Part shown: positions 6,440 to 38,703 of the stretch, piece by piece
Numbering within the stretch: position 1 is the stretch's first letter
Layout: every line of letters starts with the position of its first letter
Assembly: GCA_045544935.1 (NCBI GenBank)
Contig: JAZPZZ010000209.1
Span: 1-45,555, forward strand
Reading direction: 5' to 3'
DNA length: 45,555 nucleotides
Origin: Oscillospiraceae bacterium
GTDB lineage: Bacteria; Bacillota; Clostridia; Oscillospirales; Oscillospiraceae
Translations under genes and position numbers: made by a program
The notes under the pieces: generated by a model
Databases searched by the model: none
The model's input: the letters and a program-made list of their open reading frames with translations, nothing else
Told to the model about the DNA's origin: nothing

Positions 6440-6473
6440 CTTACAATTCCTTGTCTTCGATACAGCGGGATGG

Positions 6474-6506
6474 AAAAAGGGACTGCCGCTGTACGCAACA
6501 GTCCCG
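6474..6506 (-). terminator. Terminator ending the S8 peptidase operon
   Basis: Minus strand: gggactg...cagtccc stem followed by TTTTT. Confidence 0.55.
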
Positions 6507-6524
6507 TTTCGGTTTTTCGGATGA

Positions 6525-7727: not shown

Positions 7728-7754
7728 GGTTTCTCCTTCGGGATCAGAAATTGT

Positions 7755-8915: not shown

Positions 8916-8944
8916 CTAGTTCCTCCTTGCAGTCGGGGGGCTGT

Positions 8945-10045
8945 TCAGAAGCTCAGGTTCGGGGACCAGCCCTTGAAGATGCTGCGGATGATGCTCTGGA
9001 ACAGGTTGCGGATCCAGCTGAAATCAAAGATGTTCCAGCCGGTGCCGGGATTGTCGGGCTGATCGGGCTCGGTGGGAGCGCTCGGGTCGTTGAGCTCATA
9101 GCCCCACTTCTCGGCGGCGTATCTGAGGGCCGCGGGAACCTGAATCAGGCCGTTGCCGGCATAATCCTGTCCGGCAAGCTCACGGCTGGTGGCAATCAGA
9201 ATCTCCTTGAATTCCGCGAGGGTCATGTCGGGGTTCATCTGTTTGAGCAGCGCGGCGAGACCGGCCACATAGGGCGTGGAGAAGCTGGTGCCGTCCATCG
9301 TGGAGACGATGCCCGGCAGGAGGCTGAGGCTCGCGACCTTCTCGGCAGGCGCCACAACGAACACGCTGTCGTTCTTGTTGGAAAACACGCTGACGTTCAG
9401 ATTCTGATCCACGCCGCCGACGCCGATGACGGAGTCATAGGCAGCGGGATAGTTGTACTGGGCAGGCGTACTGCTGTCGCCCTCGTTGCCGACGGAAGCG
9501 ACCACGATCACACCGGCGGCGGCAGCGGCGTCGACGGCGGCCTTGAGATTCGCCTTCCGGTCGCTGGGCGTGCCCATGCTCATGTTGATGACCTGGCAGC
9601 CGGCCTCCACGCAGTCATAGACCGCCTGCGCCATGTCGCTGAGGGCCTTGACAATGTAGAAATCGCACTCGGGGGCAACGCCGGCGATGCCGACGCGGTT
9701 GTCCTTCGCCGCGCCGATGATGCCGGCGACGAAGGTGCCGTGACCTTCGATGTCAGTCGCAGAGTCGCCGATGGAGCCGGTGTAGTTGGGTCCGGCTTCC
9801 ACGCGGCTTCTGGCAATGTCGCCCGTGGCGGTGGAAAGACCGCTGTCGATGATGCCGACCTTCACGTCCTTGCCGGTGGGTCCCATGCCCCAGGCCTCGT
9901 TCATGCCGACAGCCTTCATGCCCCACTGCTTGGTGGAGCCGGGGTCGTTGGTCATTTTGTCCACTGCCAGCGCGGAGAGCCCGAACAGCGGAACGAGCAT
10001 GCACAGAGCCAGCAGCATGGCAAGCCATTTTCTTGTCTGTTTCAT
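8945..10045 (-). CDS. Secreted S8 serine peptidase, paralogue 3, with conserved C-terminal tail
   Basis: Start chosen at ATG 10045 (MKQTRKWLAMLLALCMLVPLFGLSALA) behind AGGAGGA. Triad motifs present. Tail WNIFDFSWIRNLFQSIIRSIFKGWSPNLSF. Confidence 0.85.
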   Translation of the reverse strand: MKQTRKWLAMLLALCMLVPLFGLSALAVDKMTNDPGSTKQWGMKAVGMNEAWGMGPTGKDVKVGIIDSGLSTATGDIARSRVEAGPNYTGSIGDSATDIEGHGTFVAGIIGAAKDNRVGIAGVAPECDFYIVKALSDMAQAVYDCVEAGCQVINMSMGTPSDRKANLKAAVDAAAAAGVIVVASVGNEGDSSTPAQYNYPAAYDSVIGVGGVDQNLNVSVFSNKNDSVFVVAPAEKVASLSLLPGIVSTMDGTSFSTPYVAGLAALLKQMNPDMTLAEFKEILIATSRELAGQDYAGNGLIQVPAALRYAAEKWGYELNDPSAPTEPDQPDNPGTGWNIFDFSWIRNLFQSIIRSIFKGWSPNLSF

Positions 10046-10179
10046 ATGCTTCCTCCTCTTTAAAATATAAAAGTCAGTCTTCTGTCTGCTTTGATGGACA
10101 TTATAGCATAAATCTGTCGATATGGAACATTCTGATTTGTAAAAATTTGCTGTTTGAATTTGTGGAAACAGCCGAACGG

Positions 10180-10872
10180 TCAGCGCTCTGTTCCGATGGT
10201 GTAGAGATTCAGAAAGGTCTGCGCGCACTCGGCGCGGCTGAGCGAGGCCTGCGGGCGGAAGGTGCCGGCGGAGTCGCCGTTCATGATGCCGGTGATCTTG
10301 CAGATCATCACATTGACAGCTGCCCAGGAGCTGATGGAGGACGCGTCCCGGAACTCATCCTTGAGCAGCATCGCGGCCGTTTTGGCGTCCAGCCGCTGGA
10401 TCATCTTCGCGGAGGCGTCGTCCAGCTTTGCCTGGCTCAGCAGGAAGCGAACAATCATGGTGGCCATCTGCTCGCGGGTAATGGCCTTGTTTGGGGAGAA
10501 GACGTTCGCGCTGCCGTCGCCGGTCGTCACGCCGTTCTTCACACCCCAGACCACCGCGTCGCGATACCAGCAGCCGGCGTCGTTCGGCACGTCGCTGAAG
10601 GGGTTGCTCTGACCCTTCACGCTTGGCTGATCTGCCAGGCGGTAGAGCACCGTGATGACCATGGCGCGCGTGACGGTGCCGTCGGGATCGAAGCGATTGT
10701 CGCCGACGCCGTTCATCAGTCCGCTGGCCTTGACAAAGTCCACTGCCTCGGCGTACCACGCGGAGCGGGAGACGTCCGAAAAGCCGCTTGCGGGGAAGCT
10801 CGCCGCGAAGGCGGATGCGCTGAGCGCAAAGACCAGGCACAGCGCCAGCAGCAGGGAAACCATCTTTTTCAT
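10180..10872 (-). CDS. SLH-domain-only surface protein (signal peptide + three S-layer homology repeats)
   Basis: FSDVSRSAWYAEAVDFV, FSDVPNDAGCWYRDAVVWGV and a third SLH-like repeat. RBS GGAGG upstream of ATG. Confidence 0.85.
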   Translation of the reverse strand: MKKMVSLLLALCLVFALSASAFAASFPASGFSDVSRSAWYAEAVDFVKASGLMNGVGDNRFDPDGTVTRAMVITVLYRLADQPSVKGQSNPFSDVPNDAGCWYRDAVVWGVKNGVTTGDGSANVFSPNKAITREQMATMIVRFLLSQAKLDDASAKMIQRLDAKTAAMLLKDEFRDASSISSWAAVNVMICKITGIMNGDSAGTFRPQASLSRAECAQTFLNLYTIGTER

Positions 10873-18049: not shown

Positions 18050-21000
18050 TCAGCCGACGGAGAGCAGGGCGGCCTCGGAGATCACCTTGGCGCCGCTGGC
18101 GTCGGTGATGACGCAGCGGTAGCGCTGTCCGTCGCGCTTCGCGGTCGCCTGGATCGTGAGCGTGTCGGTATCTGCGCCGGCGGCGGAGGAATCATACCAC
18201 ATGGTCTTGCCGGGCTGGCAATACTGCCACTGGTAGGTCAGATCGTCGCCGGAGACCTGCACGGTGAAGACGGCGCTCGTCCCGAGCGCGGCGGTCTGAT
18301 CCGCCGGCTGGGAGAGGATTTCCGCCATCGGCTGCGGCGCGCCGACCGTGAGCGCCGCGGCCTCGGAGATCACCCGGTTTCCGGAGACGTCGGTGACGAC
18401 GCAGCGGTAGCGCTGCCCGTCGCGCTTCGCGGTCGCCTGAATCGTGAGCGTGTCCGTGGTTGCGCCGGCGGCGGAGGAATCATACCACATGGTCTTGCCT
18501 GACTGGCAATACTGCCACTGGTAGGTCAGACCCTTTCCGGAGGCCTGCACGGTGAAGACGGCGTCCGCTCCGAGGGCGGCGGTCTGATCCGTCGGCTGGG
18601 AGAGGATCTCCGTTGGCCGGATGCTGCTGTCGATCGTGACCGTCACGGGGTCGGTCGTCACGCTTCTGCCGAGCGCGTCGGAGATGACGCAGCGGTAGGA
18701 CTGGCCGTCGCGCTTCTGGGTGAGGGTGACGCCGATGACCGCGCCGTCCGCGCCGGGCATGCCGGAGTCATACCACGTGGTCTTTCCGGGCTGGCGATAC
18801 TGCCACTGATAGGTCAGCCCCGCGCCCTGCGTGACGACGGAGAGCAGCACCGTCTCGCCTGCGGCGCCGGAGACGTCCTTCGGCTGGGAGACGATCGGGT
18901 CAAACGGCTCGTCGGCGAGGAAGTGGACGGTCGCGTTGTTGAAGCGGTAGGCGCCGGGGATTGCATTCCACTGTTCCTCCGTGCCGACGTAATAGATATC
19001 CTGCAGCGCGTCGCACATGTCGAAGCAGCCGAACATGCTGTTGTCAATCGAGGCAACGCTCGCCGGAATCGTGACGCTCGCGAGATTGCTGCAGGCCATG
19101 CACATTTCCGCGGGAAGCGCTGTGACGCCTTCCGGGATCGTGAGGGAGGTGATGCCGCAGCTGCTGAACGCGGAGAAGCCGATTTCGGCAACACCGGCCG
19201 GAATCGAGATGCGCTTCAGATTTCGGCAGCCGGAGAATGCGTTGGCGCGGATTCGGAGCACCCCGCTCGGAATTTCGTATGCACCGCTCTTTGCAGAGGG
19301 GTACAGGATGAGCTCCGTCATGTCCCTGGTGAAGAGCACGTTATCCACGGACACAAAGCACGCGTTGCCGGGCGCGACGTTGATCGTCGTCAGGCTGCTG
19401 CAGTTTTGGAACGCGCCGTCGCCGATGAAGGTGACCCCTGCCGGGATTGTGACGCGCTCGAGGCCGGAGTGGCCGAGCGCATAGCTGCCGATGTATTCGA
19501 GACTCTCGGGAAGCGCGATGCTCTTCAGCGACCAGCAGGAACTGAACGCGTTGCGGCCGATGGCGATGACGCCCTCCGGGATGGTCACCTGCTCCAGGTT
19601 GTATTGGTTGTAGAAGGCCTCGCCTGCGATCAGCCGCGTGCCGGGGCGGACGTCAAAGCAGACGGAGCCGTTATCGGCCGCACGCATCAGGATGGAGTCA
19701 TAATAGAACGAGTCGTCGATCCAGTTTGCGGTATCGTCATAAATCGGCGTATTGTCGAGCGCGTGGCTTCCGATGTTCCTGACGCTCGACGGAATGTCGA
19801 CCGACGTCAGATTTCCGCACTGATGGAACGCGTAGTCTCCGATCTCCACGACGCCGTCCGGAATCGTGAGGGCGGTCAGGCCGGTGCAGCGCGCGAACGC
19901 GGAATCTCCGATGCGCTCCAGACTCGTCGGGAGCGTCACGCTCGTGAGGTTCGCGCATTCGGAGAACGCGCCGTAGCCGATGCTGCTGACGCCGGGCTGA
20001 AGAACCACGGTCGTCAGATTCGGGCAAAAGGCGAACACGCTGCCGTCCATGGTCTCGACGCTTGCCGGAATGGTGACGCTCGTGAGACCGCTGTAGGCAA
20101 AGGCCATTTCTCCGAGCCGCACAATGTGCTCGGAAAGGTCAATGCGCTTCAGGCTCGTGCATCCGTCGAACGCAAAGTAGCCGATTTCCGTGACGGTATC
20201 CGGGATCGAAACCTGCTCGAGATTCTCGCAGCCGTAGAACGTCGTGCCGCCGATGCGCGTGATGCCGGGCTCAATCACCACGGCGCGGATGCGCGAATCG
20301 AACGACAGCGGGCTTTTATCGTCCGGCGTCTCTCCGTCGGTATAGCGGTCCCAGGTGGCGCCGGTGCCGGTGACGGTGACGACGCCGTTTTCATCCATGG
20401 TCCAATACGCGTTGTCGCCGCACTGGCCGGACGGCAGGACCACGCCGTCCTGACAATGGATGAAGGCGCTCGTGAGCGAGTTGTTGAACTCCGCGATCTC
20501 GACGGCGTTCCACTGCGCCGTCGTGCCGGGGTAATAGACGTCGCCCAGGCCGCGGCAATTCGGGAAGGCGTTATATTCAACGCGCTCGAGGCTTGCGGGC
20601 AGCGTCAGCGCCGTGAGCGCCTCGCAGGAGCGGAACGCGCCGGAGCCGATGCTCGTCACGCCGTCCGGGACGGTGTAAGTCTCGCCCCTGCCGAGCGGAT
20701 ACTGCACCAGCGTGGTGCAGGCCTTGTCAAAGAGCACGCCGTCCACGGCGGCAAAGACTTCGCTGTCGGCCGCGACCTCGAACGACTGCAGGGAGGCGCA
20801 GCCGTAAAACGCGCTGTCTCCGATGCGCTCGAGGCTCGCCGGGATGGAGACGCTCGTCAGATTCCCATCCCAGCAGAACGCCTGGTCCGCAATGCTCGTG
20901 ACGCCCTCGGACAGGACGACCGTTTTCACCCTGTCGGCAAATCGCATCCACGGGTTGGACGTCATCTCACCCGTGCCGGAGATGACGAGGGCGCCGTCCT

Positions 21001-23533
21001 CCAGCAGGGCCCATGTGAGGTGCTCGCCGCAGGCACCGTTGGGATAGTACGTGCCGTCGGCGCACAGAATCTTCGCTCTGTCCAGCGGCTCGTTGCCGAA
21101 CTGGATCTCAACCGCGCTCCACTGCGCGATCGTGCCGGCGAAGGAGACCTCCGCGAGCGCGCCGCAGCCGCTGAACGCGCAGGATTCGATGCGCGCAAGG
21201 CTCGCGGGGAGCTCCACGCGCGTCAGGTTGGGGCAGGAGTTGAACGCGTTGTATACAATGCTCGTGATCCCCTCGGAGATCACGACGCGCTGCACGTCGT
21301 TCTGGTGCTCGTACACCCATGGGGACGAGGTGATCTCACCCGTGCCGGTGATCGTGAGCACGCCGTCGGCCAGCGTCCAGAAGGCATTGCTGCCGCAGGG
21401 CTCCGGCAGCGACGGGTCCGCCGGATCGTCCACGCGGATCGATGCGACGCCGAGGACGTGCCCGTCCGCCGGGTCGGCATAGACCGTGGCGGTGAGCTTG
21501 CGGACGGAATCATACTGGCGGAAATATGCCGGATCGTCGCTCCAGAAGGTCAGCCAATCCTGCGTCGAGCTCCAGAGGACAGGGCGGTAACACCATTCGT
21601 ACTCCGAGAGGTCGAGATAGGGATTGGACAGACCGGAAAGATCGGCGTTTTCGCCGTCTGCAACCCGATAGAAGACCGTTGCAAGCTCCGATCTGTTGAA
21701 CGAAGAGCTCGGCAGAAACTGCGCGGGATCAAAGCCTGTTAAGATATTGCGCCAGTATGTCCAGTGAATCGCGTCGATCTGCCGCTGCGACAATCCCTCG
21801 AGGTCCGTAAACAGCTCCCGATAGCCGGTGATCGAGCCGTTGAAGAGATCATAGAGCATCTCCGCGACGCCGACGCGCGTGCCGTAATAGCTGCGTACCT
21901 GCGTGACGGCGCCCTCCGGCGCCTCGCTGCACAGCACGAGCTCGCCCGTGGCGACGGGAACATTGATATCACCGTCGGAACAGTAGATGCAGGCGGCGGT
22001 CAGCGCGTCGTTTCCGCTGCCGAGCCGCATCGCGTTCCACTGCTCCGTCGTGCCGGAGTAGTTTACATTCTGAATGTTCGGGCAGCCGTCGAACGCGCGC
22101 TCGCCGATCACGGTGACCGTTTCGGGGATCGACACGCTGCGCAGATTCTCATAAAAGCAGAACGCCTCGTCGGCGATGCTCGTGACGCCGTCGCCCACCA
22201 TGATGCAGGTGACGTCCGTATCCATCCAGCCCGGAGAGGAGGTCATCTCGCCCGTGCCGGTGATGCGGAGCGTGCCGTATTCATGCTTGTACCAATAGAC
22301 GTCGTTTCCGCACTGTCCGCTCGCGACGATCGAAGGATCGGACGTCGGCTCGTCGGTCGGGTCTGGCGGCGGAGTCGGCTCGTCGGTCGGCTCGGAGGCG
22401 GGTTCGATCGTGCCGTCCGCGCAGTGGATGGCGGCGTAGTTCAGGCGCTCATTGCCTTCGCTGTCGCCGGTGATCGTGTTCCACTGCTCAATTGTGCCGG
22501 CATAATACACGTCGTGCAGCTTTGTGCAGTTGCGGAAAACCGCATTTCCGAAGCTGGTCACGCTGTCCGGGATCGTGATGGTTGTCAGATTGCTGCAGCC
22601 GCTGAACGCGCCAACTTCTATAGCGGTCACAGAATCCGGAAGCACGATCTCGGAGAGACTGCTGCAATTATCGAATGCAGAGAATCTGATGAGCGTAATG
22701 CCGTCCGGAATCGTAATGCTCGTCAGGCTGCTGCAATCACCGAACGCGTTTTGATCAATGTATATGACAGAAGCCGGGAGATCGATGCTCCGCAGGCTGC
22801 TGCATCGACTAAAAGCGTTTTCGCCGATCTTTTCCACGCCGTAGGGGATCGCCATTTCCACCAGGTTTTCACAATCATAAAACGTGCCGGACCGAATCTC
22901 CGTCAATCCGCTCGGAAGCATGACAGTTTTCAGTTTGCTTTGAGAAAACGCATAGGAATCGATCGCCGTCACGGTTGAAGGAACCGCATACTGCACGTCG
23001 GAACGAGCAGCCGGAAAACGGATCAGCATCTTTTCGTCTTTGCTGAACAAAATGCCATCTACAGCTGCAAAGGCCGGATTGTCCTCTGCAACCTCATACG
23101 CCTCAACGCCTGGAGAATAAGCAAAATTGTGTTCACCGATGCTTGTAAGAGAACTCGGAATGACGATTGTTGGGACATGCAAGTTGCCAAACAGCCCCAT
23201 CGCAATTCCAGTCACGCCCTCTTCAAACACAATCGCTGCTGCGTGTTCAGCGTCGAAATTGATCCAGCTTACTTCGCCTTGGCCGCTGAACGTAAGCACA
23301 TCGTTTTCATCCCGCGACCAAAAGGTGTTCTCGCCGCATTGACCGCTTGTGGGCGATGGCGTCGGTTCTGCGGGCTCTGTCGGATCGGGCGGGATTGGCT
23401 CCTCAGGCGTCTCCGTTGCTGCCGGATCGGTCGGTGCTGCGGGTTCGTCCGGGTCCGCCGCGAGCGCCGCGGAGGGCAGCAGCGACAGCACCAGACAGAA
23501 CACCAGAAGCAAACTGAAAATACGTCGTTTCAT
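18050..23533 (-). CDS. Giant secreted surface protein: several BspA-type leucine-rich-repeat modules + three C-terminal Ig-like domains
   Basis: 1827 aa. Signal peptide. Many F..C..L..I.IP.SV..IG..AF..C units (LRR_5-like). C-terminal YQWQY...W....TL.I....DG..YRCV.TD domains. Confidence 0.9.
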   Translation of the reverse strand: MKRRIFSLLLVFCLVLSLLPSAALAADPDEPAAPTDPAATETPEEPIPPDPTEPAEPTPSPTSGQCGENTFWSRDENDVLTFSGQGEVSWINFDAEHAAAIVFEEGVTGIAMGLFGNLHVPTIVIPSSLTSIGEHNFAYSPGVEAYEVAEDNPAFAAVDGILFSKDEKMLIRFPAARSDVQYAVPSTVTAIDSYAFSQSKLKTVMLPSGLTEIRSGTFYDCENLVEMAIPYGVEKIGENAFSRCSSLRSIDLPASVIYIDQNAFGDCSSLTSITIPDGITLIRFSAFDNCSSLSEIVLPDSVTAIEVGAFSGCSNLTTITIPDSVTSFGNAVFRNCTKLHDVYYAGTIEQWNTITGDSEGNERLNYAAIHCADGTIEPASEPTDEPTPPPDPTDEPTSDPSIVASGQCGNDVYWYKHEYGTLRITGTGEMTSSPGWMDTDVTCIMVGDGVTSIADEAFCFYENLRSVSIPETVTVIGERAFDGCPNIQNVNYSGTTEQWNAMRLGSGNDALTAACIYCSDGDINVPVATGELVLCSEAPEGAVTQVRSYYGTRVGVAEMLYDLFNGSITGYRELFTDLEGLSQRQIDAIHWTYWRNILTGFDPAQFLPSSSFNRSELATVFYRVADGENADLSGLSNPYLDLSEYEWCYRPVLWSSTQDWLTFWSDDPAYFRQYDSVRKLTATVYADPADGHVLGVASIRVDDPADPSLPEPCGSNAFWTLADGVLTITGTGEITSSPWVYEHQNDVQRVVISEGITSIVYNAFNSCPNLTRVELPASLARIESCAFSGCGALAEVSFAGTIAQWSAVEIQFGNEPLDRAKILCADGTYYPNGACGEHLTWALLEDGALVISGTGEMTSNPWMRFADRVKTVVLSEGVTSIADQAFCWDGNLTSVSIPASLERIGDSAFYGCASLQSFEVAADSEVFAAVDGVLFDKACTTLVQYPLGRGETYTVPDGVTSIGSGAFRSCEALTALTLPASLERVEYNAFPNCRGLGDVYYPGTTAQWNAVEIAEFNNSLTSAFIHCQDGVVLPSGQCGDNAYWTMDENGVVTVTGTGATWDRYTDGETPDDKSPLSFDSRIRAVVIEPGITRIGGTTFYGCENLEQVSIPDTVTEIGYFAFDGCTSLKRIDLSEHIVRLGEMAFAYSGLTSVTIPASVETMDGSVFAFCPNLTTVVLQPGVSSIGYGAFSECANLTSVTLPTSLERIGDSAFARCTGLTALTIPDGVVEIGDYAFHQCGNLTSVDIPSSVRNIGSHALDNTPIYDDTANWIDDSFYYDSILMRAADNGSVCFDVRPGTRLIAGEAFYNQYNLEQVTIPEGVIAIGRNAFSSCWSLKSIALPESLEYIGSYALGHSGLERVTIPAGVTFIGDGAFQNCSSLTTINVAPGNACFVSVDNVLFTRDMTELILYPSAKSGAYEIPSGVLRIRANAFSGCRNLKRISIPAGVAEIGFSAFSSCGITSLTIPEGVTALPAEMCMACSNLASVTIPASVASIDNSMFGCFDMCDALQDIYYVGTEEQWNAIPGAYRFNNATVHFLADEPFDPIVSQPKDVSGAAGETVLLSVVTQGAGLTYQWQYRQPGKTTWYDSGMPGADGAVIGVTLTQKRDGQSYRCVISDALGRSVTTDPVTVTIDSSIRPTEILSQPTDQTAALGADAVFTVQASGKGLTYQWQYCQSGKTMWYDSSAAGATTDTLTIQATAKRDGQRYRCVVTDVSGNRVISEAAALTVGAPQPMAEILSQPADQTAALGTSAVFTVQVSGDDLTYQWQYCQPGKTMWYDSSAAGADTDTLTIQATAKRDGQRYRCVITDASGAKVISEAALLSVG
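18053..18910 (-). repeat. Three tandem 288-nt (96-aa) Ig-like domain repeats inside the LRR protein
   Basis: Units start at 18053, 18341 and ~18629. The first two are near-identical at nucleotide level by eye. Confidence 0.75.
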
Positions 23534-27043: not shown

Positions 27044-27985
27044 TTATTGGTCGTACACGCCCGTGCCCATGATGAGGCTCGCGTTGGCCTCGAAGTGCGA
27101 CGGGGCGATCGTGACGCTGCCGCCGGCGGGGACATCCTTGGCCGAGGCGGTGTAGGTGATGCCGCCGACGAAGGTGTTCTCGTCCGGGTAGAAGTACTTA
27201 TAGAACACGCGCACGACCGGCAGGGGCTCCTGCGTGGTGTTCATGAGGGTGATGGTGTTGTCGTCGTTGATGACGGGGATTACCTTGTCCGAGCCCGGGA
27301 GCATGTCCACCGGCGCGACGACGCGGCTGATCAGCTCGAGCACTTCCTTTGTGTCGCGCTGATGGCGGGATGCCTCGAGCACCACGCAGGACTGACCCGC
27401 GGGCAGATCGGAGACCTTGAAGGAGATCGGCTTGCCGTTTACGTCGAAGGCGTATTCGGCGTACTGAATGTCCTTGTCGCTCGTGTTGACAAACTGCAGC
27501 GCGAGCACGTTTTTGACCTGCTCGTCCGTGCCGTCCTCGAGGAAGGCGCCGTCGTAGCCCGCGGCGAGCGTGCGGATCTCGATGCCGTAGTCGTCGTCCT
27601 TTAGGTTGGTCCACGGCTGCTTTACGGTCTCCTCGCCGGTGCCGGCGGTGCCGCTGCCGGTGTCGGTCTTGACGCCGGAGAGGTTGCTGTTGCCGGTCTG
27701 GCGGATGGTGTCGATCGGGTTTTCATCGAGCACCTCGAGCTCGTTGCCCTCGTCGTCCACGAGGACCTTCTGGCCGTCGTCGTTGATGATGACCGTGCCC
27801 TCCGTGGAGCCCGAGCCCTCGGGCTGCTTGGGGGCGCTGCTCTTCGAGGCGAAGAAGATGCCGAGCGCGATCGCGAGCACGACCAGCACCGCCACGCCCG
27901 TCCAGACGATGGTCATCTTCCGGTTGACCTTGTTGAAGCGGTCAGCCGGGTTTTTGGTTTCTTTCTTTTCGGGTTCCTGACTCAT
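27044..27985 (-). CDS. Single-pass membrane protein, function unknown (Lys-rich cytoplasmic N-tail, TM helix, ~260-aa external domain)
   Basis: ATG 27985 overlaps the rSAM stop (ATGA). TM IVWTGVAVLVVLAIALGIFFA. Third gene of the rSAM operon. Confidence 0.7.
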   Translation of the reverse strand: MSQEPEKKETKNPADRFNKVNRKMTIVWTGVAVLVVLAIALGIFFASKSSAPKQPEGSGSTEGTVIINDDGQKVLVDDEGNELEVLDENPIDTIRQTGNSNLSGVKTDTGSGTAGTGEETVKQPWTNLKDDDYGIEIRTLAAGYDGAFLEDGTDEQVKNVLALQFVNTSDKDIQYAEYAFDVNGKPISFKVSDLPAGQSCVVLEASRHQRDTKEVLELISRVVAPVDMLPGSDKVIPVINDDNTITLMNTTQEPLPVVRVFYKYFYPDENTFVGGITYTASAKDVPAGGSVTIAPSHFEANASLIMGTGVYDQ

Positions 27986-29106
27986 TTTGCGTCCTCCTTC
28001 AGCAGCGCGCGGCAGGCGGGGCCCGTGGCGCGCATCAGATCGCAGCGATACTGCGGTTTCTTGTCGTAGCAGCCGGTTTCGGTATAGATCATGGCGGCGC
28101 AGGAGCGGCAGACGTCCTTCGAGTCGCACGCGGCGCACTCCGCCGGCAGGCGGATGGCCTGCGTCCGAGCGCGCAGCGCCTCCCACGCAGCGGGAAAGCC
28201 CGTTTCGAAGACATTGTAGCTCGGGTCGTCCATCATGGCGCACAGCAGCAGCCGTCCGTCCCACGTGATCCAGAACGAGCTCTTGCCCGCGCGGCAGCGC
28301 ACGCCGTCGCCCTCGCAGTCGAACATGGCGTCCTCCTCGAGCACGCAGTGCGATTCCACGCTCTCGCAGTACTTGAGCAGGTCCTCGCGGCCGCGCTGCA
28401 GCAGACGGATGCGCGCCTCCACGGCGGCGCATTCCTCCGGCGTAAAGCGCTCGTTGCGCCCGATGCTGGTCTCGTCGCGCCGCAGGGGCGGGAACATGTA
28501 GCTCGTGGCCTGCAGGACGAGCTTGCGCTCATCGCTGTAGGCGATGATCTTCTCCAGATCGCAGACGTTGTCCGGCGTGACGCTGCAGTTGAGCTTCACG
28601 GGGATGTTCGCCTCCTGCAGCATCTCGATCGCGCGGGTCACGACGGTGTAGCCCGTGGCGTGATTGCACAATCGGAGATACGTCTCGTCCGACGCGCCGT
28701 AGAGCGTGATGTTGATGCGCTGCGGCGGGTCCTCGGCAAACCATCTGACGGTCTCCTCGTCGATGAGCGTGGCGTTGGAGTTGATGGATATGACGAAGCC
28801 CATTTTCCGAAGTTCCCGATAGAGCTCCCGGAAGCCGGGGTAGGTCAGCGGCTCGCCGCCGGTGAGCAGGAGCAGGAGCGTGCCCTGTTCCTTGAGCACC
28901 TTTGCCAGAGAGAGCCATTCGTCCACGGTGCGCAGCCGCTTGCCGGAGTCTTTCACCTCCTCGGCCGTCATGCGCACATAGCACATTTTGCAGCTCATGG
29001 AGCACATCGGCGTGAGCTCGAACGTGCCCGAGAGCGGGATGCCGCGCACGTCCGCGCGGCGGTGCAGATGCTCCACCAGAGCGCTGGAGCCTCGTTCAGC
29101 AATCAT
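27982..29106 (-). CDS. Radical SAM enzyme with C-terminal SPASM-type Cys-rich domain
   Basis: CSMSCKMC (CxxxCxxC, nt 28981-29004). C-terminal CRAGKSSFWITWDGRLLLC ... CAACDSKDVCRSC ... GCYDKKPQYRC. Confidence 0.9.
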   Translation of the reverse strand: MIAERGSSALVEHLHRRADVRGIPLSGTFELTPMCSMSCKMCYVRMTAEEVKDSGKRLRTVDEWLSLAKVLKEQGTLLLLLTGGEPLTYPGFRELYRELRKMGFVISINSNATLIDEETVRWFAEDPPQRINITLYGASDETYLRLCNHATGYTVVTRAIEMLQEANIPVKLNCSVTPDNVCDLEKIIAYSDERKLVLQATSYMFPPLRRDETSIGRNERFTPEECAAVEARIRLLQRGREDLLKYCESVESHCVLEEDAMFDCEGDGVRCRAGKSSFWITWDGRLLLCAMMDDPSYNVFETGFPAAWEALRARTQAIRLPAECAACDSKDVCRSCAAMIYTETGCYDKKPQYRCDLMRATGPACRALLKEDAK

Positions 29107-34926: not shown

Positions 34927-35139
34927 TGTAGGTCAGATTCCTCCATTCTCGTCTGTTCTCTTTTAGATTCGGAAAGACGGGGAAAGCCCCGTCGGGTAAG
35001 TGTCAAATATTTCAAACGAAGTCTCCACACTCCGCATAAAATATCACCATATTATTCTAGCGGCCTTTCAACATTATGTCAAGTATGTCGGGGCGATTTT
35101 TCCGCTGAAGTTTTCTGAAAAAACACGCCCTCCGGAGGT

Positions 35140-35168
35140 TTGACAGCGCAGGTTGCGCACTTTATAAT
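35140..35168 (+). promoter_or_regulatory. Consensus sigma-70 promoter of the TIR gene
   Basis: TTGACA (35140-35145), 17 nt spacer, TATAAT (35163-35168). Confidence 0.7.
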
Positions 35169-35223
35169 ATATGTAAAAAAACGGCGGCGAGGGCCGTCGC
35201 TGCAGTGTTTGGGAGGGAGCCGG

Positions 35224-38200
35224 ATGCAAAAACAGAAGCAAAATTCGCCGCAGGACGACCAATACGACATTTTCCTCTCCTACAGCCACCGCGATCACGC
35301 GGTGGTGCGTCGCGCGCAGCGCATAATGGAGCGCTGGATCCCCGTGGAGGAGGACGGAGAGAAGCGAAAGCTCCGCGTTTTCCGCGATGAATCGCATCTC
35401 ACGGCGGGCGATCTGTCCGAACGCATCCGCGAAGCGCTCGGCCGCAGCGAATATCTGATGGTGTTCTGCTCGCAGAGCGCGCTGGAGTCGGACTATGTGC
35501 ATCAGGAGCTGGCCGCCTTTCTCGACCTCTTTTCGCTCGACACGCCCGCGCAGCAAAGGACGGCCCTGGAGCACGTGTTCTTCGGCGTCTTTGAAAAGGA
35601 GCCGGACCGCAGCAAGGATCTCATACGCCGCCTGATCGCGAAGGCCATGCGCTCGAAGCTCTCCATGGAGCAGCTGGTCTCGCTGCAGAAGATCGCGAGC
35701 GAGAACGTCTTTGCCGATTACGGCAAGAGCGGCCGCTCCCGCGCGATGGAGCGAAAGGAGACCTACAAGGTCGTGGCCGCGATGCTGGACCGCGACCTCG
35801 ACGCGCTGCTGCGCCGCGGCGAGCACCGCCGCCGCCGGCTCGTCGCGAGCGCGGTCGGCGCGGGCGTGCTCATCGGTGTGCTGATGCCGGCGTTTATCCT
35901 CAGCTATACCGCCATGCGCGACCGGGACGCGAGGCAGCTCTCCCTCGTGGCCGAGGCGCAGATGCGCTCCGGCGACCGGCTCACGGCGGCAAGACTCGCC
36001 CTCGCGAGCATGGAGTCGAAGCTTTTCTACCGCACCACGGCGCCGGAGGCCGTCTCCGTGCTGGCAGACACGTCGCTGGCCTACACCCTGCCCTCCGAGA
36101 CGCACATCGAGACCTCGGAGCAGTTTTCCATCCGCTATGACAAGAGCCTCAGCGCGGACGTCTCGCCCTCGGGGCGGTATCTCGCCGCGGTCAACGAAAA
36201 GCTGGACGTCGTCGTCTGGGACGTGCAGACCGGGCAGGAAAAGTGGTCGATCAGATTCGTTCTGGACCCGCTCTGCAATCCGGTGCTGCGCTTCATCGGG
36301 GACGACATGCTCCTCGTGAGCGATTTCTTCAGCGCCCGCTGCATTGATATGGACACGGAAGAGGAGCTCTGGGCGCAGGAATATGAAAAGCCGGAATCGG
36401 TCTTTCGGATCACCTATGCCGCGGGCGGCAATTCGAGCATGCTGTACAACGAGGAGTTCGACGGCGCGGCGAACTTCGCCGCCGGAAAGCCCGACGAGGT
36501 GCTCTTTGTCGAGCGAAAGGGCGGTCTGGTGCTGCGCAACGTGCGCTCCGGCGAGGAGCTCGCGCGGCTGGAGGCGGACAAGATCGCGCCGCTGCTGCCG
36601 GAGGGCGTGCAGTATTATGAGCAGAATGCGATCTACGTCCTGTCGATGCTCGCCCAGTCGCAGTCGCCGGATGAAATTTACTATGACGCGTCGTCCGATC
36701 AGTTTTATGTGCCCTGCAGTGCCAAGCGAAACGTCACGTCGCGGGGCGACTCTTTCAGCATTGATGAGGTCTGCCCCGGCGTTCTGGTCTGGAGCCCGTC
36801 GACGGGTGCTGCGAAGTATGTGCCGCTCGACAACGCGGTCTATGACGAGGACTGGGCCGAGGGCGGCATGGAGGCGATCGCCTATCCCGGCGGGGAGCTG
36901 ATTCTCAAGCGCCTGAGCGGGCGCGAGGGAGACCGCATCTGCGCCTTCGACTGTGAGACCGGCTCTGTTCTCTGGAAGGCGGAGCTCAACGCCGTGGACG
37001 ACTATATCCCCTTTGAACACACCGTCTGCGGCACCGAGCAGGGCATCGCCGTGCTGCAGAAGGACAGCCTGCTGTTTCTCGATGCGAAGGACGGCAGCGT
37101 GAAAAAGACCGTGAAGCCGGAGCTGGATTACAATGAAGAACTGCTCGTCCTGCTGCTGGAGGGGCAGAGCGCGGCGCGCGGCACATCTGTTGAGAGCAAT
37201 TCGCTGCTGCTGCTCACCTCCAGGGGCCGCATCTGCGCCCTCGGCGCCGACGGCGTCACTGTGGGCGCGGCCGGACAGGCCGTGAGTACCGACAAGCTGC
37301 GCTATCCGCTCTATGTCTCCGGCGCGCACGCCTTCGACGGCCGGACCTACGTCTACAGCCAGACGGACAACGCCGTGCAGCAGTATCTCATCGGCGTGGA
37401 GAACGAGGGCTGGCGCGATCTGACGCAGATGCTGCAGGAGACCGCGCGCAGCCGGCATCTGCTCTCCGGCGAGCGGCTGCTGGTGAAGAACACGTCCGAC
37501 GCGTGGACGCTCTATGACGTTTCGTCGGCGGCAAAGAAGCTCTGGACCGTTACGCCCGAGGACATGGAGCGCGAGCGCGCGAAACGCTATGAGGGCGACT
37601 CCCTGCTCGAGCGCTTCCAGGACCTTGAGTTCGTGGGCGAGGACGCGTCCGAGGGCGTCATCGTGCTCTCAACCGAGGAGCTCTACGGTTTCGTTCTGCT
37701 CGATACCGAAACCGGCGGGATCGAGCTGCGGGAGGTCCCCTTCGGCGAGCCGGGGAGCGAATCGGCCCACAGCGCGGACAAAACGCGGCTCTGGAGCCCC
37801 GTGCTGACGGAGGACGGCTTGTTCTACGTCACCTGTGTCCAGCGCGGGGAGAAGATGGAATACGGCTGGATCCAGTATCAGCTCTCCGACACCGGTTATT
37901 TCTATCATCCGGTCGGCACCGCCGAGGGCGCGAGCTCCATGACCGAGCTGGGCCTTGTCGTTTCGCCCACCGGAAAGTTTGTCGTGGTGGTCGGGTTCTA
38001 TGAGGGACCGGTGCTCTACTCCACGGCGGAGACGTACGGCAAGCCGGTGAATTTCGATCTCCCCATCGAGGACGGCGACTATGAATATGGCTCCATGCTG
38101 ACCAACCTGTTCTTCCAGAAGGGCGAAAACGCCGCCGTTTGTGCCTTTTCGGCCGACGGCCGGCGCTTTGCCGTGAACTTCGCCTCCATGGGGCAGGTCC

Positions 38201-38658
38201 GCGTCTATGATCTCACGGGCGCGGAGAAGGGCAAGTGGTCGTATTTCAACGAGACAATCACGGACATGCGCTTTGTGGGCAAGAAGCTCCTCGTGCTCAC
38301 GGCGGACGGCCGCGTGGAGGAGATTCGTGTCGGCAGCGGCAGGACCCTGCGCGAGGCGCAGCTCTATGAGAGCAAAAACGGGGCCTATCACTTCGCCGGC
38401 GGGACGGATGACGGTCTCTGGGTGCTGGACGCCTACGGTAAAAACGCCTTCTGTCTTGATACGGACAAGCTCGCCTGCGCGCAGACGCTGCGCGGGGCGT
38501 GGGCGCTCGATCTCGAGCACGGCCGGGCGTATCTCAGCGACGACGTGCTCACCGGCAGTCTCCCGCTGCGCAGTGCACGAGAGATCATCGCCCTCGGGCG
38601 GCAGGCCGCGGGCAACACGCCGCTCTCCGACGAGGTCCGCCGCCGCTTCGGCGCGTAA
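35224..38658 (+). CDS. TIR-domain / TM helix / WD40-like beta-propeller protein (1144 aa)
   Basis: ATG 35224 behind GGGAGGGAG. YDIFLSYSHRD ... LMVFCSQSALESDYVHQEL (TIR; Glu95 codon 35506-35508). RRRR-LVASAVGAGVLIGVLMPAFILSYTA (residues ~206-229). Then WD40-like units such as LSADVSPSGRYLAAVNEKLDVVVWDVQTG and FSADGRRFAVNFASMGQVRVYDL. Confidence 0.85.
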   Translation: MQKQKQNSPQDDQYDIFLSYSHRDHAVVRRAQRIMERWIPVEEDGEKRKLRVFRDESHLTAGDLSERIREALGRSEYLMVFCSQSALESDYVHQELAAFLDLFSLDTPAQQRTALEHVFFGVFEKEPDRSKDLIRRLIAKAMRSKLSMEQLVSLQKIASENVFADYGKSGRSRAMERKETYKVVAAMLDRDLDALLRRGEHRRRRLVASAVGAGVLIGVLMPAFILSYTAMRDRDARQLSLVAEAQMRSGDRLTAARLALASMESKLFYRTTAPEAVSVLADTSLAYTLPSETHIETSEQFSIRYDKSLSADVSPSGRYLAAVNEKLDVVVWDVQTGQEKWSIRFVLDPLCNPVLRFIGDDMLLVSDFFSARCIDMDTEEELWAQEYEKPESVFRITYAAGGNSSMLYNEEFDGAANFAAGKPDEVLFVERKGGLVLRNVRSGEELARLEADKIAPLLPEGVQYYEQNAIYVLSMLAQSQSPDEIYYDASSDQFYVPCSAKRNVTSRGDSFSIDEVCPGVLVWSPSTGAAKYVPLDNAVYDEDWAEGGMEAIAYPGGELILKRLSGREGDRICAFDCETGSVLWKAELNAVDDYIPFEHTVCGTEQGIAVLQKDSLLFLDAKDGSVKKTVKPELDYNEELLVLLLEGQSAARGTSVESNSLLLLTSRGRICALGADGVTVGAAGQAVSTDKLRYPLYVSGAHAFDGRTYVYSQTDNAVQQYLIGVENEGWRDLTQMLQETARSRHLLSGERLLVKNTSDAWTLYDVSSAAKKLWTVTPEDMERERAKRYEGDSLLERFQDLEFVGEDASEGVIVLSTEELYGFVLLDTETGGIELREVPFGEPGSESAHSADKTRLWSPVLTEDGLFYVTCVQRGEKMEYGWIQYQLSDTGYFYHPVGTAEGASSMTELGLVVSPTGKFVVVVGFYEGPVLYSTAETYGKPVNFDLPIEDGDYEYGSMLTNLFFQKGENAAVCAFSADGRRFAVNFASMGQVRVYDLTGAEKGKWSYFNETITDMRFVGKKLLVLTADGRVEEIRVGSGRTLREAQLYESKNGAYHFAGGTDDGLWVLDAYGKNAFCLDTDKLACAQTLRGAWALDLEHGRAYLSDDVLTGSLPLRSAREIIALGRQAAGNTPLSDEVRRRFGA

Positions 38659-38674
38659 GATTTTGCGCGGACGG

Positions 38675-38703
38675 TAGACAAGACGCGGCAGATTGTATAT
38701 AAT
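38675..38703 (+). promoter_or_regulatory. Promoter of the GT39 gene
   Basis: TAGACA (38675-38680), 17 nt spacer, TATAAT (38698-38703). Confidence 0.5.

What the first reader, a model, noticed from the sequence alone, without database searches (positions are those of the whole stretch)
35140..38658. Receptor-like TIR protein: cytoplasmic TIR, one TM helix, ~900-aa beta-propeller, driven by a perfect consensus promoter
Seen: residues 14-100 show the TIR hallmarks DIFLSYSHRD, VFRDE, LMVFCS and S..Y..QEL. The Glu sits at the position of the catalytic Glu of NAD-cleaving TIR domains (codon 35506-35508). An Arg cluster (RRGEHRRRR) precedes a 24-residue hydrophobic helix. That helix is followed by ARQLSLVAEAQ and multiple WD40-like blades. 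The positive-inside rule predicts TIR inside and propeller outside, which is the same logic as eukaryotic Toll-like receptors with a different sensor fold. Effector-TM-WD40 architectures are annotated in actinobacteria and cyanobacteria but have no assigned function. The promoter is exact TTGACA-17-TATAAT. No partner defence genes (ThsA-like, CBASS, Pycsar, STING etc.) are adjacent, so it would be a single-gene sensor-effector if it is defence or signalling related.
Basis: partly seen in the sequence, partly recalled or inferred. Interest (0 to 1): 0.68.

Follow-up and report, generated by a model that had tools for sequence, protein, structure and literature searches.

The report
Membrane-anchored TIR enzyme with outside sensor
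This gene encodes a single-pass membrane protein with a probable NAD-cleaving TIR domain inside the cell and two large beta-propellers outside. It belongs to a large, untested family in gut and rumen Clostridia that may let bacteria couple an outside cue to a TIR enzyme.

Summary

- **Coding start.** The CDS begins at ATG 35224. Position 35140 is the -35 hexamer of the promoter.
- **TIR domain.** It spans residues ~13-188, not 14-100.
- **Ectodomain.** It is two tandem beta-propellers of about 15 blades, not one.

The 1144-aa protein has this order:
- a TIR domain (Pfam above threshold; every Foldseek hit is a TIR; Glu95 sits in the catalytic-Glu column and is invariant in 126/127 relatives);
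- an Arg cluster;
- one strongly hydrophobic helix (206-229);
- a very conserved juxtamembrane helical unit;
- the propellers;
- a conserved C-terminal helix.

The exact TTGACA-17-TATAAT promoter is unique in the window. It is conserved in all six orthologous loci.

The gene is not an orphan. Exhaustive HMMER finds about 600 clusters (50% identity) with the same TIR-TM-repeat plan. Most are ~1030-aa proteins named only "TIR domain-containing protein", from Clostridia (Butyrivibrio, Ruminococcus, Saccharofermentans). I found no paper describing them.

Neighbourhoods are mostly housekeeping and no relative lies on a viral contig. However, the closest full-length relative sits in a defence-island-like locus.

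Best reading: a type II receptor-enzyme in which clustering driven by the ectodomain switches on the cytosolic TIR NADase. The biological cue is unknown.

The parts
35140..35168 (+). Sigma-70-type promoter: TTGACA (35140-35145), 17-nt spacer, TATAAT (35163-35168)
   Evidence: It matches 12/12. It is the only exact match in the window and none occurs in 100 shuffles. The hexamers are identical in all six orthologous loci while the spacer diverges.
35175..35223 (+). Short 5' leader with a 7-bp hairpin near its 5' end (35182-35199), a second hairpin overlapping the start codon, and the Shine-Dalgarno GGGAGG (35211-35216)
   Evidence: Sequence read. Fold energy is -21.2 kcal/mol, z = -2.5. There is no Rfam match. 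The transcription start is inferred from the -10 box and was not measured.
35224..38658 (+). Coding sequence of the 1144-aa TIR-TM-double-propeller protein (stop codon 38656-38658)
   Evidence: ORF and translation. GC3 is 0.84 against GC2 0.42. Orthologues of 99, 87, 75 and 70% identity have dN/dS of 0.29-0.43, so the gene is under purifying selection.
35260..35787 (+). Cytoplasmic TIR domain, residues ~13-188 (betaA 14-19 through alphaE 173-188)
   Evidence: Pfam TIR_2 and ThsB_TIR score above their gathering thresholds. The AF2 model has pLDDT 86.7. The top 50 Foldseek PDB hits are all TIR domains, including RPP1, RUN1, Roq1, BtpA, AbTir, TLR1/2 and SARM1. The family profile hits AtTIR and Roq1 at 1e-7 to 1e-6.
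35506..35508 (+). Glu95 codon, at the position of the catalytic Glu of NADase TIR domains (motif S89-x-Y91-V-x-x-E95)
   Evidence: It aligns with the Glu of the plant 'SxWCLxEL' motif and with 9m0n 'SEWVKKEI'. It is invariant in 126 of 127 family sequences, as are F17, S19, Y20, F53, D55 and S89.
35812..35838 (+). Arg cluster RRGEHRRRR (residues 197-205) on the cytoplasmic side of the membrane helix
   Evidence: R197 and G199-R205 are invariant among the five orthologues. The family-wide positive-inside bias is shown.
35839..35910 (+). Single transmembrane helix, residues 206-229 (LVASAVGAGVLIGVLMPAFILSYT)
   Evidence: Kyte-Doolittle mean is 2.19 over 19 residues and the next best segment scores 1.37. 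AF2 predicts one continuous helix 192-248. 139 of 158 relatives have exactly one such helix, near residue 190.
35911..36105 (+). Juxtamembrane helical unit outside the membrane (residues 230-294, ARQLSLVAEAQ...); the most conserved part of the protein
   Evidence: dN/dS is 0.04-0.17 and identity 89-98%. 25-residue windows with >=92% invariant columns lie across 222-280. The motif is shared with the whole family and with actinobacterial TIR-TM-WD40 proteins.
36106..38568 (+). Two tandem beta-propellers (residues 295-1115, 62 predicted strands, about 15 blades)
   Evidence: PQQ_2 scores above threshold, with weak WD40-type matches. AF2 secondary structure. Foldseek matches tandem double propellers (Utp21, COPB2, Apaf-1, AIP1, 2ymu) at E 1e-20 to 1e-15.
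37996..38145 (+). Hypervariable surface stretch in the second propeller (residues 925-974)
   Evidence: In the most variable 25-residue window only 4% of columns are invariant among the five orthologues. Model confidence is low at 949-966, and indels occur here in alignment A1.
38569..38655 (+). Conserved C-terminal helical tail (residues 1116-1144)
   Evidence: Helices 1118-1129 and 1136-1142 in the model. dN/dS is 0.14-0.28. A conserved C-terminal consensus runs across the 30-sequence family alignment.

Best explanation
The gene encodes a type II (N-in, C-out) single-pass membrane protein.

**Layout**
- Its N-terminal TIR domain sits in the cytoplasm. About 15 helical residues separate alphaE from the membrane helix, so the TIR is held close to the membrane.
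- Outside the membrane lie a conserved helical neck and two tandem beta-propellers.

**Proposed mechanism (inferred by analogy with other TIR enzymes)**
1. The propellers bind an extracytoplasmic ligand or surface.
2. This clusters or re-packs the membrane helices and brings the cytoplasmic TIR domains together.
3. As in other TIR enzymes, self-association forms the composite active site around Glu95, and NAD+ is cleaved.
4. The result is either NAD+ depletion or production of an ADP-ribose-derived signal.

The most likely setting is conflict at the cell envelope, with phage or competitors, but this is the weakest step.

**Shown versus inferred**
- Shown: the domain identities, the single membrane helix, the charge bias, the conserved catalytic-position residues, purifying selection and the conserved strong promoter.
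- Inferred: the topology, the enzymatic activity, activation by clustering and the biological cue.
For: **TIR identity**
- Pfam scores above gathering thresholds.
- The fold is confirmed by the AF2 model and Foldseek.

**Catalytic competence**
- Glu95 lies in the catalytic column.
- It is invariant in 126 of 127 relatives, together with the betaA, betaB and S-x-W/Y motifs.

**Membrane helix and topology**
-.

**Ectodomain**
- Tandem propellers.

**Constant effector, variable sensor**
- The same TIR-linker-TM unit is joined to WD40, TPR or other repeats in Actinobacteria, Proteobacteria and Clostridia.

**Signs of fast evolution**
- dN is 0.158 against 0.060 for the flanking PMT gene in the same genome pair.
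- The propellers carry hypervariable loops, while the neck is nearly invariant.
- Tandem paralogues occur in relatives.

**Context**
- The closest full-length relative, P0010, lies among GmrSD, SIR2, helicase, RAMP and TIR genes.

**Expression**
- The conserved perfect promoter implies the gene is expressed.
Against: - No experiment exists, and NADase activity and topology are predictions.
- Contexts in the window and in most relatives are housekeeping. PADLOC found only two generic kinases among 134 neighbours. Contexts are also housekeeping.
- No relative lies on a viral contig.
- Base composition is native, with GC 0.64 against 0.615 for the window. Synteny with rny and PMT is conserved in the clade. 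The gene therefore behaves like a stable chromosomal gene, not a mobile defence cassette.
- dN/dS is only 1.5-2 times that of the flanking genes.
- Trp of the S-x-W motif is Tyr here; Tyr occurs in 8 of 127 relatives.
- No ligand can be named.
Confidence: 0.5

Rival explanations
1. The protein has the same receptor-enzyme mechanism but a non-immune role. It would be a housekeeping envelope or environment sensor, for example of cell-wall state, S-layer or glycan cues, or host or dietary polymers. Its TIR would make an adenine-nucleotide second messenger that other proteins read and degrade.
For: - Contexts are mostly housekeeping and show no defence enrichment.
- Synteny is stable and composition is native.
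- The promoter is strong and conserved.
- The window is rich in surface proteins: SLH proteins, a BspA LRR protein, and a PMT glycosyltransferase directly downstream.
- In relatives, a soluble DHH/DHHA1 phosphoesterase is adjacent in 13 of 62 loci. A 2-3-TM protein with a RyR-type domain, a domain type shown in animal RyRs to bind adenine nucleotides, is adjacent in another 13.
Against: - Neither partner is in this window.
- To my knowledge, bacterial TIR domains with the catalytic Glu that have been studied act in immunity or virulence.
- The closest full-length relative is in a defence-like island.
- Tandem paralogues and hypervariable loops fit a conflict role better.
Confidence: 0.27
2. 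The TIR domain is a non-catalytic interaction module, an adaptor as in animal TLR signalling. It would recruit other proteins to the membrane when the ectodomain is engaged.
For: - TIR domains of TLR1/2 are among the structural matches.
- Other TIR-only proteins are encoded near some relatives.
Against: - The catalytic-position Glu and the surrounding S-x-W/Y-x-x-x-E motif are invariant in 126 of 127 relatives.
- The best sequence and fold matches are enzymatic plant and bacterial TIRs.
- No second TIR gene is in the window.
Confidence: 0.1
3. The hydrophobic segment does not span the membrane, or the topology is inverted. The propellers would then be cytoplasmic, as in STAND-type TIR-NTPase-WD40 proteins, and the protein would sense an intracellular cue.
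For: - The helical lead-in plus WD40-like module also occurs in proteins that pair WD40 repeats with STAND-type NTPase domains, seen among the hits. I take these to be cytoplasmic from general knowledge.
- A simple sum of Hessa-scale values that I did by hand, not with a tool, gives a borderline insertion energy because of Pro222 and three Gly.
Against: - The Kyte-Doolittle mean is 2.19 and the helix is isolated and continuous in the model.
- The single helix sits at the same place in 139 of 158 relatives.
- The positive-inside bias is strong.
- With one span the two ends must lie on opposite sides, and NAD+ is cytoplasmic.
Confidence: 0.06

Closest known systems
Uncharacterised Clostridia 'TIR domain-containing protein' family of ~1030 aa (e.g. 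WP_026490338.1 Butyrivibrio sp. XBB1001, MBQ8057345.1 Ruminococcus sp., MCQ2504234.1 Saccharofermentans sp.)
   Same: - It has the same plan from end to end: N-terminal TIR with the same invariant residues, basic stretch, one TM helix near residue 190-206, the juxtamembrane helical motif, non-canonical propellers and a conserved C-terminal helix.
   Different: - Identity is only 17-22%; the nearest full-length relative, P0010, is 33% identical.
- The window protein is about 110 residues longer.
- It has Tyr for Trp in the S-x-W motif and a diverged alphaD-betaE segment.
- Its clade is narrow: only four close homologues exist among 5.8 billion proteins.
- No member has a tested function.
Bacterial and plant NAD+-cleaving TIR domains (AbTir, BtpA/TcpB, ThsB, plant TNL TIRs such as RUN1, Roq1 and RPP1, SARM1)
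   Same: - The TIR fold and the catalytic-position Glu in alphaC are shared.
- The betaB and BB-loop pattern F-x-D-x-x-x-L-x-x-G is shared.
- Activation by self-association is the expected mode, by analogy only.
   Different: - In the characterised systems I know of, those TIRs are soluble and respond to intracellular cues or to partner NTPase or SAVED/STING domains.
- Here the TIR is tethered to a membrane helix with a large extracytoplasmic domain and no NTPase.
- No ThsA-like effector is nearby.
Animal Toll-like receptors
   Same: - Both are single-pass membrane proteins with a repeat-built ectodomain and a cytoplasmic TIR.
- The logic of ligand-driven TIR association is plausibly the same.
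   Different: - The polarity is opposite. TLRs are type I with a C-terminal TIR; this protein has an N-terminal TIR.
- The ectodomain is beta-propellers rather than LRRs.
- This TIR keeps the enzymatic Glu.
- There is no evidence of common descent of the whole architecture.
M. tuberculosis PknD-type receptor kinases (cytoplasmic enzyme, one TM helix, extracellular beta-propeller)
   Same: - The topology and sensor class are the same: N-terminal cytoplasmic catalytic domain, single TM helix, extracytoplasmic beta-propeller. This rests on general knowledge of PknD and was not tested here.
- A relative in the family even adds a kinase domain: P0128 is Pkinase-TIR-TM-propeller.
   Different: - The output domain is a TIR rather than a Ser/Thr kinase.
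- There are two propellers of WD40/PQQ type rather than one six-bladed NHL propeller.
STAND/NLR-like TIR-NTPase-WD40/TPR proteins (Avs-like, TIR-NLR) and the TIR-TPR protein 9m0n
   Same: - An N-terminal TIR effector is followed by C-terminal repeat sensors.
- 9m0n is the best PDB sequence match to the TIR.
- The PADLOC TIR-NLR model gives a weak hit.
   Different: - There is no P-loop NTPase; a membrane helix occupies that position.
- The sensor is predicted to face outwards.

Membership tests
TIR domain superfamily (Pfam TIR_2 PF13676) | Profile match above the curated threshold | tested here: met
   TIR_2 scores 32.6 bits against 28, with E = 1.3e-7 over residues 16-101. The family profile hits AtTIR at 1.6e-7 and Roq1 at 1.3e-6.
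TIR domain superfamily (Pfam TIR_2 PF13676) | Flavodoxin-like alpha/beta fold with five parallel strands betaA-betaE | tested here: met
   The AF2 model has pLDDT 86.7, with strands 14-19, 52-54, 75-82, 118-122 and 162-165 and helices between them. The top 50 Foldseek hits are all TIR domains, with TM-score about 0.6 on the target.
NAD+-cleaving (enzymatic) TIR domains | Conserved catalytic Glu in alphaC, preceded by the S-x-W motif | tested here: met
   E95 aligns with the Glu of 'SxWCLxEL' and 'SEWVKKEI'. It is invariant in 126 of 127 relatives. Trp is replaced by Tyr here.
NAD+-cleaving (enzymatic) TIR domains | Measured NAD+ hydrolase or cyclase activity that depends on the Glu and on self-association | not testable with these tools
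   This needs biochemistry with purified or clustered protein and a Glu95Ala control.
Thoeris (ThsB with ThsA) | ThsB-type TIR protein | tested here: met
   ThsB_TIR scores 25.3 bits against 21.2. PADLOC ThsB models give only weak hits, E = 0.002-0.01.
Thoeris (ThsB with ThsA) | Adjacent ThsA effector (SIR2 or Macro/TM with a SLOG domain) | tested here: not met
   The flanking genes are RNase Y and a PMT glycosyltransferase. No SIR2, SLOG or ThsA hit occurs among the 35 window ORFs scanned with PADLOC, nor among the ORFs scanned with Pfam.
Toll-like receptors | Type I topology with an N-terminal LRR ectodomain and a C-terminal TIR | tested here: not met
   The TIR is N-terminal, the ectodomain is C-terminal, and the ectodomain is built of beta-propellers.
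STAND/NLR-like TIR proteins (TIR-NLR, Avs-like) | Central P-loop NTPase (NACHT/NB-ARC/AAA) between effector and repeats | tested here: not met
   No NTPase family appears in the Pfam, NCBIfam or PADLOC scans of the protein. Residues 189-294 are helices, including the TM helix.
Clostridial TIR-TM-propeller family (unnamed) | TIR + basic stretch + one TM helix + juxtamembrane helical motif + propellers + C-terminal helix, alignable end to end | tested here: met
   The profile search finds about 120 proteins of roughly 850-1200 aa, most near 1030 aa, that match positions 13-390. 139 of 158 have a single TM helix. The 30-sequence full-length alignment has invariant anchors along its whole length.
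PQQ_2 / BamB-like beta-propellers | Profile match above threshold and a propeller fold | tested here: met
   PQQ_2 scores 50.7 bits against 27.6. The propeller fold is supported by AF2 and Foldseek. Features of PQQ cofactor binding or of the BamB lipoprotein were not examined.
Defence-island resident systems | Enrichment of known defence genes in the neighbourhoods of homologues | tested here: not met
   Among 134 proteins within two genes of the family gene in 44 loci, PADLOC hit only two kinases, and DHH is the top Pfam family. Four further loci are housekeeping. One locus (P0010) is defence-like. Only two genes on each side were sampled, so the test is coarse.

The most novel reading that the evidence does not exclude
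This family would be a prokaryotic 'outside-in' TIR receptor.

- An extracytoplasmic double propeller would detect an external cue, such as a phage particle, a competitor or envelope damage.
- It would switch on a cytoplasmic TIR NADase across the membrane. To my knowledge this mode of activation has not been described for bacterial TIR systems.
- In part of the family the output may be a small adenine-nucleotide signal. It could be read by the adjacent membrane protein with a RyR-type domain (a domain type that binds adenine nucleotides in animal RyRs) and cleared by the adjacent DHH phosphoesterase.
- That would amount to a previously unrecognised TIR signalling pathway in gut and rumen Clostridia.
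Probability: 0.3. Interest if true: 0.85.

Novelty: new variant of a known kind. Interest (0 to 1): 0.6.

Why it matters
- In every bacterial TIR system I know of, the TIR enzyme responds to events inside the cell: phage proteins, nucleotide messengers or partner NTPases.
- A TIR enzyme gated from outside the membrane would add surface surveillance to bacterial TIR biology. It would also give a mechanistic parallel, by convergence, to animal TLRs.
- The family is large and sits in abundant gut and rumen Clostridia, including cultured Butyrivibrio strains. It can therefore be tested directly:
  - topology mapping;
  - an NADase assay with a Glu95Ala control;
  - forced dimerisation;
  - ligand fishing with the ectodomain.
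- If the role turns out to be non-immune, that would also be new, because it would show TIR-derived nucleotides used for ordinary envelope signalling.

Tried and rejected
- **Genome scans.** Two GTDB scans for the gene found no orthologue.
- **Word-indexed protein searches.** Searches with the ectodomain alone and with the 30-sequence family alignment added no new ectodomain relatives. Canonical WD40 proteins swamped them.
- **Viral contigs.** No relatives were found.
- **Rfam on the leader and gene.** Nothing credible appeared; the one match was a chance hit inside the CDS.
- **PADLOC on the protein.** Only TIR-level hits came up (SAVED_TIR, PDC-S66, ThsB, TIR-NLR), with no system assignment.
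- **PADLOC on all window ORFs.** Hits were generic only: three subtilases, one radical SAM protein matching pVip at 1e-16, and an HD-domain hit to Cas3c. I rejected these as partners. They lie 6 kb or more away, or, in the case of the Cas3c hit, which I assign to the HD domain of RNase Y, reflect shared generic domains.
- **Thoeris, STAND/NLR and TLR membership.** All three were rejected on defining features (see the membership tests).
- **PMT as a partner.** I considered that the downstream PMT glycosyltransferase is functionally coupled. Synteny is conserved only within the narrow clade and PMT has its own promoter-like site, so this is not supported.
- **Antisense ORF.** The 794-aa ORF at 35074-37458 on the minus strand overlaps the gene. 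I take it to be the kind of spurious long ORF common in high-GC DNA: the ORF filter based on third-position GC kept only the + strand frame here.
- **Literature.** Four searches found no paper on bacterial TIR-TM-propeller proteins.

Full report
**1. What is in the sequence**

The ORF list starts the frame at TTG 35140. Those six bases are TTGACA, the -35 box of a promoter whose -10 box, TATAAT, lies 17 nt downstream at 35163-35168. The coding start is ATG 35224, preceded by GGGAGG at 35211-35216. The stop codon is 38656-38658 and the protein has 1144 residues.

The exact 12/12 promoter occurs once in the 45.5-kb window and in none of 100 shuffles. In all six orthologous loci both hexamers are unchanged and sit at the same distance from the ATG, while the spacer has diverged. 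The promoter is therefore under selection. The roughly 48-nt leader folds into two small hairpins and matches no Rfam family.

**2. Domains**

- **Pfam.** TIR_2 scores 32.6 bits (threshold 28), ThsB_TIR 25.3 (threshold 21.2) and PQQ_2 50.7 (threshold 27.6). There are also weak WD40-type matches.
- **Membrane helix.** Only one segment is hydrophobic enough to span a membrane: residues 206-229, Kyte-Doolittle mean 2.19, with the next best at 1.37. RRGEHRRRR precedes it.
- **Full-length model.** An AlphaFold2 model built on a 30-sequence family alignment has mean pLDDT 76. It shows:
  - a TIR-type alpha/beta unit from residue 14 to 188;
  - one continuous helix 192-248 that contains the hydrophobic stretch;
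  - a helical neck to about residue 283;
  - 62 beta-strands between 295 and 1114;
  - two C-terminal helices.
- **Ectodomain fold.** Foldseek matches the model to tandem double propellers (Utp21, COPB2, Apaf-1, AIP1, 2ymu) at E 1e-20 to 1e-15. The ectodomain is therefore two propellers of about 15 blades in total.
- **TIR fold.** A separate model of residues 1-203 has pLDDT 86.7. Its top 50 Foldseek hits are all TIR domains: RPP1, RUN1, Roq1, BtpA, AbTir, TLR1/2 and SARM1.

**3. The catalytic position**

The motif S89-D-Y-V-H-Q-E95-L aligns with 'SEWVKKEI' of the TIR-TPR protein 9m0n. At profile level it aligns with 'S-T-W-C-L-E-E-L' of Roq1 and AtTIR. From general knowledge of plant TIRs, the second Glu of that motif is the catalytic residue.

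In an alignment of 127 relatives, E95 is present in 126. F17, S19, Y20, F53, D55 and S89 are equally fixed. Position 91 is Trp in 118 and Tyr in 8, including this protein. Conservation of this kind argues for an enzyme rather than a scaffold.

**4. Topology**

There is no N-terminal signal peptide and only one span, so the two ends lie on opposite sides of the membrane. In 113 family proteins the 15 residues on the TIR side of the helix carry on average 4.54 Lys+Arg, against 2.79 on the propeller side. The TIR side is richer in 89 cases and poorer in 12 (Wilcoxon p = 4e-15). Since NAD+ is cytoplasmic, this supports TIR inside and propellers outside. It remains a prediction.

**5. Relatives**

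- The word-indexed search of 5.8 billion proteins found only four full-length homologues, at 99, 87, 75 and 70% identity. All lie on short metagenome contigs.
- These share the same neighbours: RNase Y, divergently upstream, and a PMT-type glycosyltransferase downstream.
- The exhaustive HMMER search with their profile found 6325 cluster representatives at E <= 1e-3 and 605 at E <= 1e-10. One is a distant full-length relative, P0010, 33% identical.
- About 120 of the best 150 are proteins of roughly 850-1200 aa, most near 1030 aa. Many match continuously across positions 13-390, that is TIR, basic stretch, TM helix, neck and first blades.
- 139 of 158 retrieved proteins have exactly one predicted TM helix, near residue 190.
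- A 30-sequence alignment keeps invariant anchors along the whole length, including the C-terminal helix.
- Sources name them only 'TIR domain-containing protein'. Hosts are Clostridia: Butyrivibrio sp. XBB1001 and INlla14 (cultured), Ruminococcus sp., Saccharofermentans sp. and Candidatus Choladousia.
- The same TIR-linker-TM unit is joined to canonical WD40 or TPR repeats in other proteins, two of which the sources assign to Streptomyces and Roseibium. One cluster adds a Ser/Thr kinase domain in front of the TIR.
- Four literature searches found no paper on this architecture. The eLife surveys of bacterial conflict systems that I read do not describe it.

**6. Evolution**

Against the three more distant orthologues, dN/dS is 0.29, 0.37 and 0.43, so the gene is functional. 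For the partial flanking genes, dN/dS is 0.19 and 0.25 for PMT against the same two most distant orthologue genomes, and 0.25 for rny. In the same genome pair, dN is 0.158 for this gene and 0.060 for PMT.

The neck (230-294) is almost frozen, with dN/dS 0.04-0.17. Loops at 382-423, 462-487, 876-917 and above all 925-974 vary freely. This pattern fits a sensor with variable surfaces and a fixed transmission element. Neutral drift of disordered loops is an alternative explanation.

**7. Context**

- **In the window.** The gene lies among housekeeping and cell-surface genes: TyrRS, radical SAM, SLH proteins, DUF4440, RNase Y, then the gene itself, then PMT, RpiB, DUF4015 and another SLH protein. 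Further away are a 1827-aa BspA-type LRR protein and three subtilases.
- **PADLOC on the window.** A scan of 35 window ORFs gives only generic hits. GC content is native.
- **Metagenome loci.** A metagenome scan gave 305 relatives, of which 80 loci were kept. No relative was on a viral contig. Among 134 proteins within two genes of the family gene in 44 loci, PADLOC hit only two kinases, and the commonest Pfam family was DHH.
- **Four longer contexts.** All are housekeeping, with tandem paralogues or extra TIR genes in some.
- **Exceptions.** P0010, the closest full-length relative, lies among GmrSD, SIR2, a ResIII helicase, a TIR-RCC1 protein, two large ATPases, a RAMP protein and another TIR. 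P0014 lies in a row of three TIR genes next to PP2C and kinase genes.
- **Conclusion.** The family is not a typical defence-island resident, but it is not excluded from such islands.

**8. Recurrent neighbours in the family (not in this window)**

- In 13 of 62 loci the gene directly upstream encodes a ~620-aa protein with 2-3 TM helices. Its C-terminal domain matches ryanodine-receptor repeat domains, with PDB 6uhi at 8.6e-13 and the Bacteroides 'putative ryanodine receptor' at 1e-6.
- The RyR repeat-12 domain binds ADP and AMP-PCP (PMC12627627, PMC13642953).
- In another 13 loci a soluble ~510-aa DHH/DHHA1 phosphoesterase is adjacent, in either orientation.
- The TIR proteins in these loci are only 25-47% identical to one another, so the linkage is old.
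- Neither gene has a homologue in the window.
- These are leads for a nucleotide-signal pathway. They are not evidence about this gene.

**9. Interpretation**

Architecture and conservation support a type II receptor-enzyme with the sensor outside and a TIR NADase inside. By analogy with other TIR enzymes, the TIR would be activated when the ectodomain drives self-association.

Whether the role is immunity or ordinary envelope signalling cannot be decided from sequence. I put the mechanism with a conflict role at about 0.5 and the same mechanism with a non-immune role at about 0.27.

The protein is not a Thoeris, STAND/NLR or TLR member, because defining features of each were tested and not met. 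It is a divergent member of a large, unnamed, untested family, so I rate it a new variant of a known kind with an interest score of 0.6.

Noticed in passing
L011, L017, L032, L033, L042, L046, L048 (8061-9917), L053, L054, L059, L074, L076, L087: In 13 of 62 family loci a ~620-aa protein is encoded next to the TIR-TM-propeller gene, directly upstream on the same strand in nine of them. It has 2-3 TM helices and a C-terminal ryanodine-receptor-type repeat domain (PDB 6uhi 8.6e-13). In animal RyRs this domain binds ADP/ATP analogues. It may be a reader of a TIR-made nucleotide. It is absent from the window.
   Followed up: partly
L014 (13112-14656), L031 (8397-9965), L098 (11836-13323) and ten other loci: A soluble ~500-aa DHH/DHHA1 phosphoesterase lies next to the family gene in 13 of 62 loci, in either orientation. 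The TIR partners in these loci are only 25-35% identical to one another. It is a candidate signal-degrading enzyme. It is absent from the window.
   Followed up: partly
L091 1-23468 (GCA_045113775.1): The closest full-length relative (P0010, 33% identity) sits in a defence-island-like stretch. The stretch carries GmrSD_N, a 988-aa SIR2_2 protein, a ResIII helicase, a soluble TIR-RCC1 protein directly upstream, two large ATPase_2 proteins, a RAMP protein and another TIR.
   Followed up: partly
P0128 cluster (Candidatus Choladousia intestinavium and gut metagenomes): This 1464-aa variant has a Ser/Thr protein kinase domain in front of the TIR, then the TM helix and propellers. It joins a kinase and a TIR in one receptor-like chain.
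   Followed up: no
L096 10001-16247 (Butyrivibrio sp. XBB1001); also L018, L019, L024, L026, L044, L093: Family genes often occur as tandem paralogues. There are two in a cultured Butyrivibrio strain and three TIR genes in a row in L093, next to PP2C phosphatase and kinase genes.
   Followed up: partly
window 35054-35082 (- strand): A near-consensus promoter (TTGACA-17-TAGAAT, 11/12) points the other way towards RNase Y. The 297-bp intergenic region therefore holds two back-to-back strong promoters, and it is highly conserved among the orthologous loci.
   Followed up: partly
window 38675-38703 (+ strand): A promoter-like site (TAGACA-17-TATAAT, 11/12) overlaps the mechanical TTG start (38693) of the downstream PMT glycosyltransferase. 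Alignments to orthologues begin at residue 17-18, so the real PMT start is probably further downstream.
   Followed up: no
window 18050-23533 (- strand): This ORF encodes a 1827-aa surface protein with ten BspA-type LRR stretches (629 bits) and C-terminal Ig-like domains.
   Followed up: no
window 5411-10228 (- strand): Three tandem S8 subtilase genes follow a transglutaminase-like gene. They match the PADLOC 'subtilase' and IetS models, probably through generic protease similarity.
   Followed up: no
window 27982-29106 (- strand): A 374-aa radical SAM protein matches the PADLOC prokaryotic-viperin models at 1e-16. That is too weak to call it a viperin, but it was not examined further.
   Followed up: no
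L001 6653-12667 (Chloroflexota MAG DAOUWT010000014.1): Four paralogous genes that look like thymidylate kinases from their N-terminal motif (not checked with a family search) are interleaved with two ~470-490-aa proteins carrying a C-terminal TIR domain. This is an unusual nucleotide-kinase and TIR cluster, unrelated to the window gene beyond the TIR.
   Followed up: no
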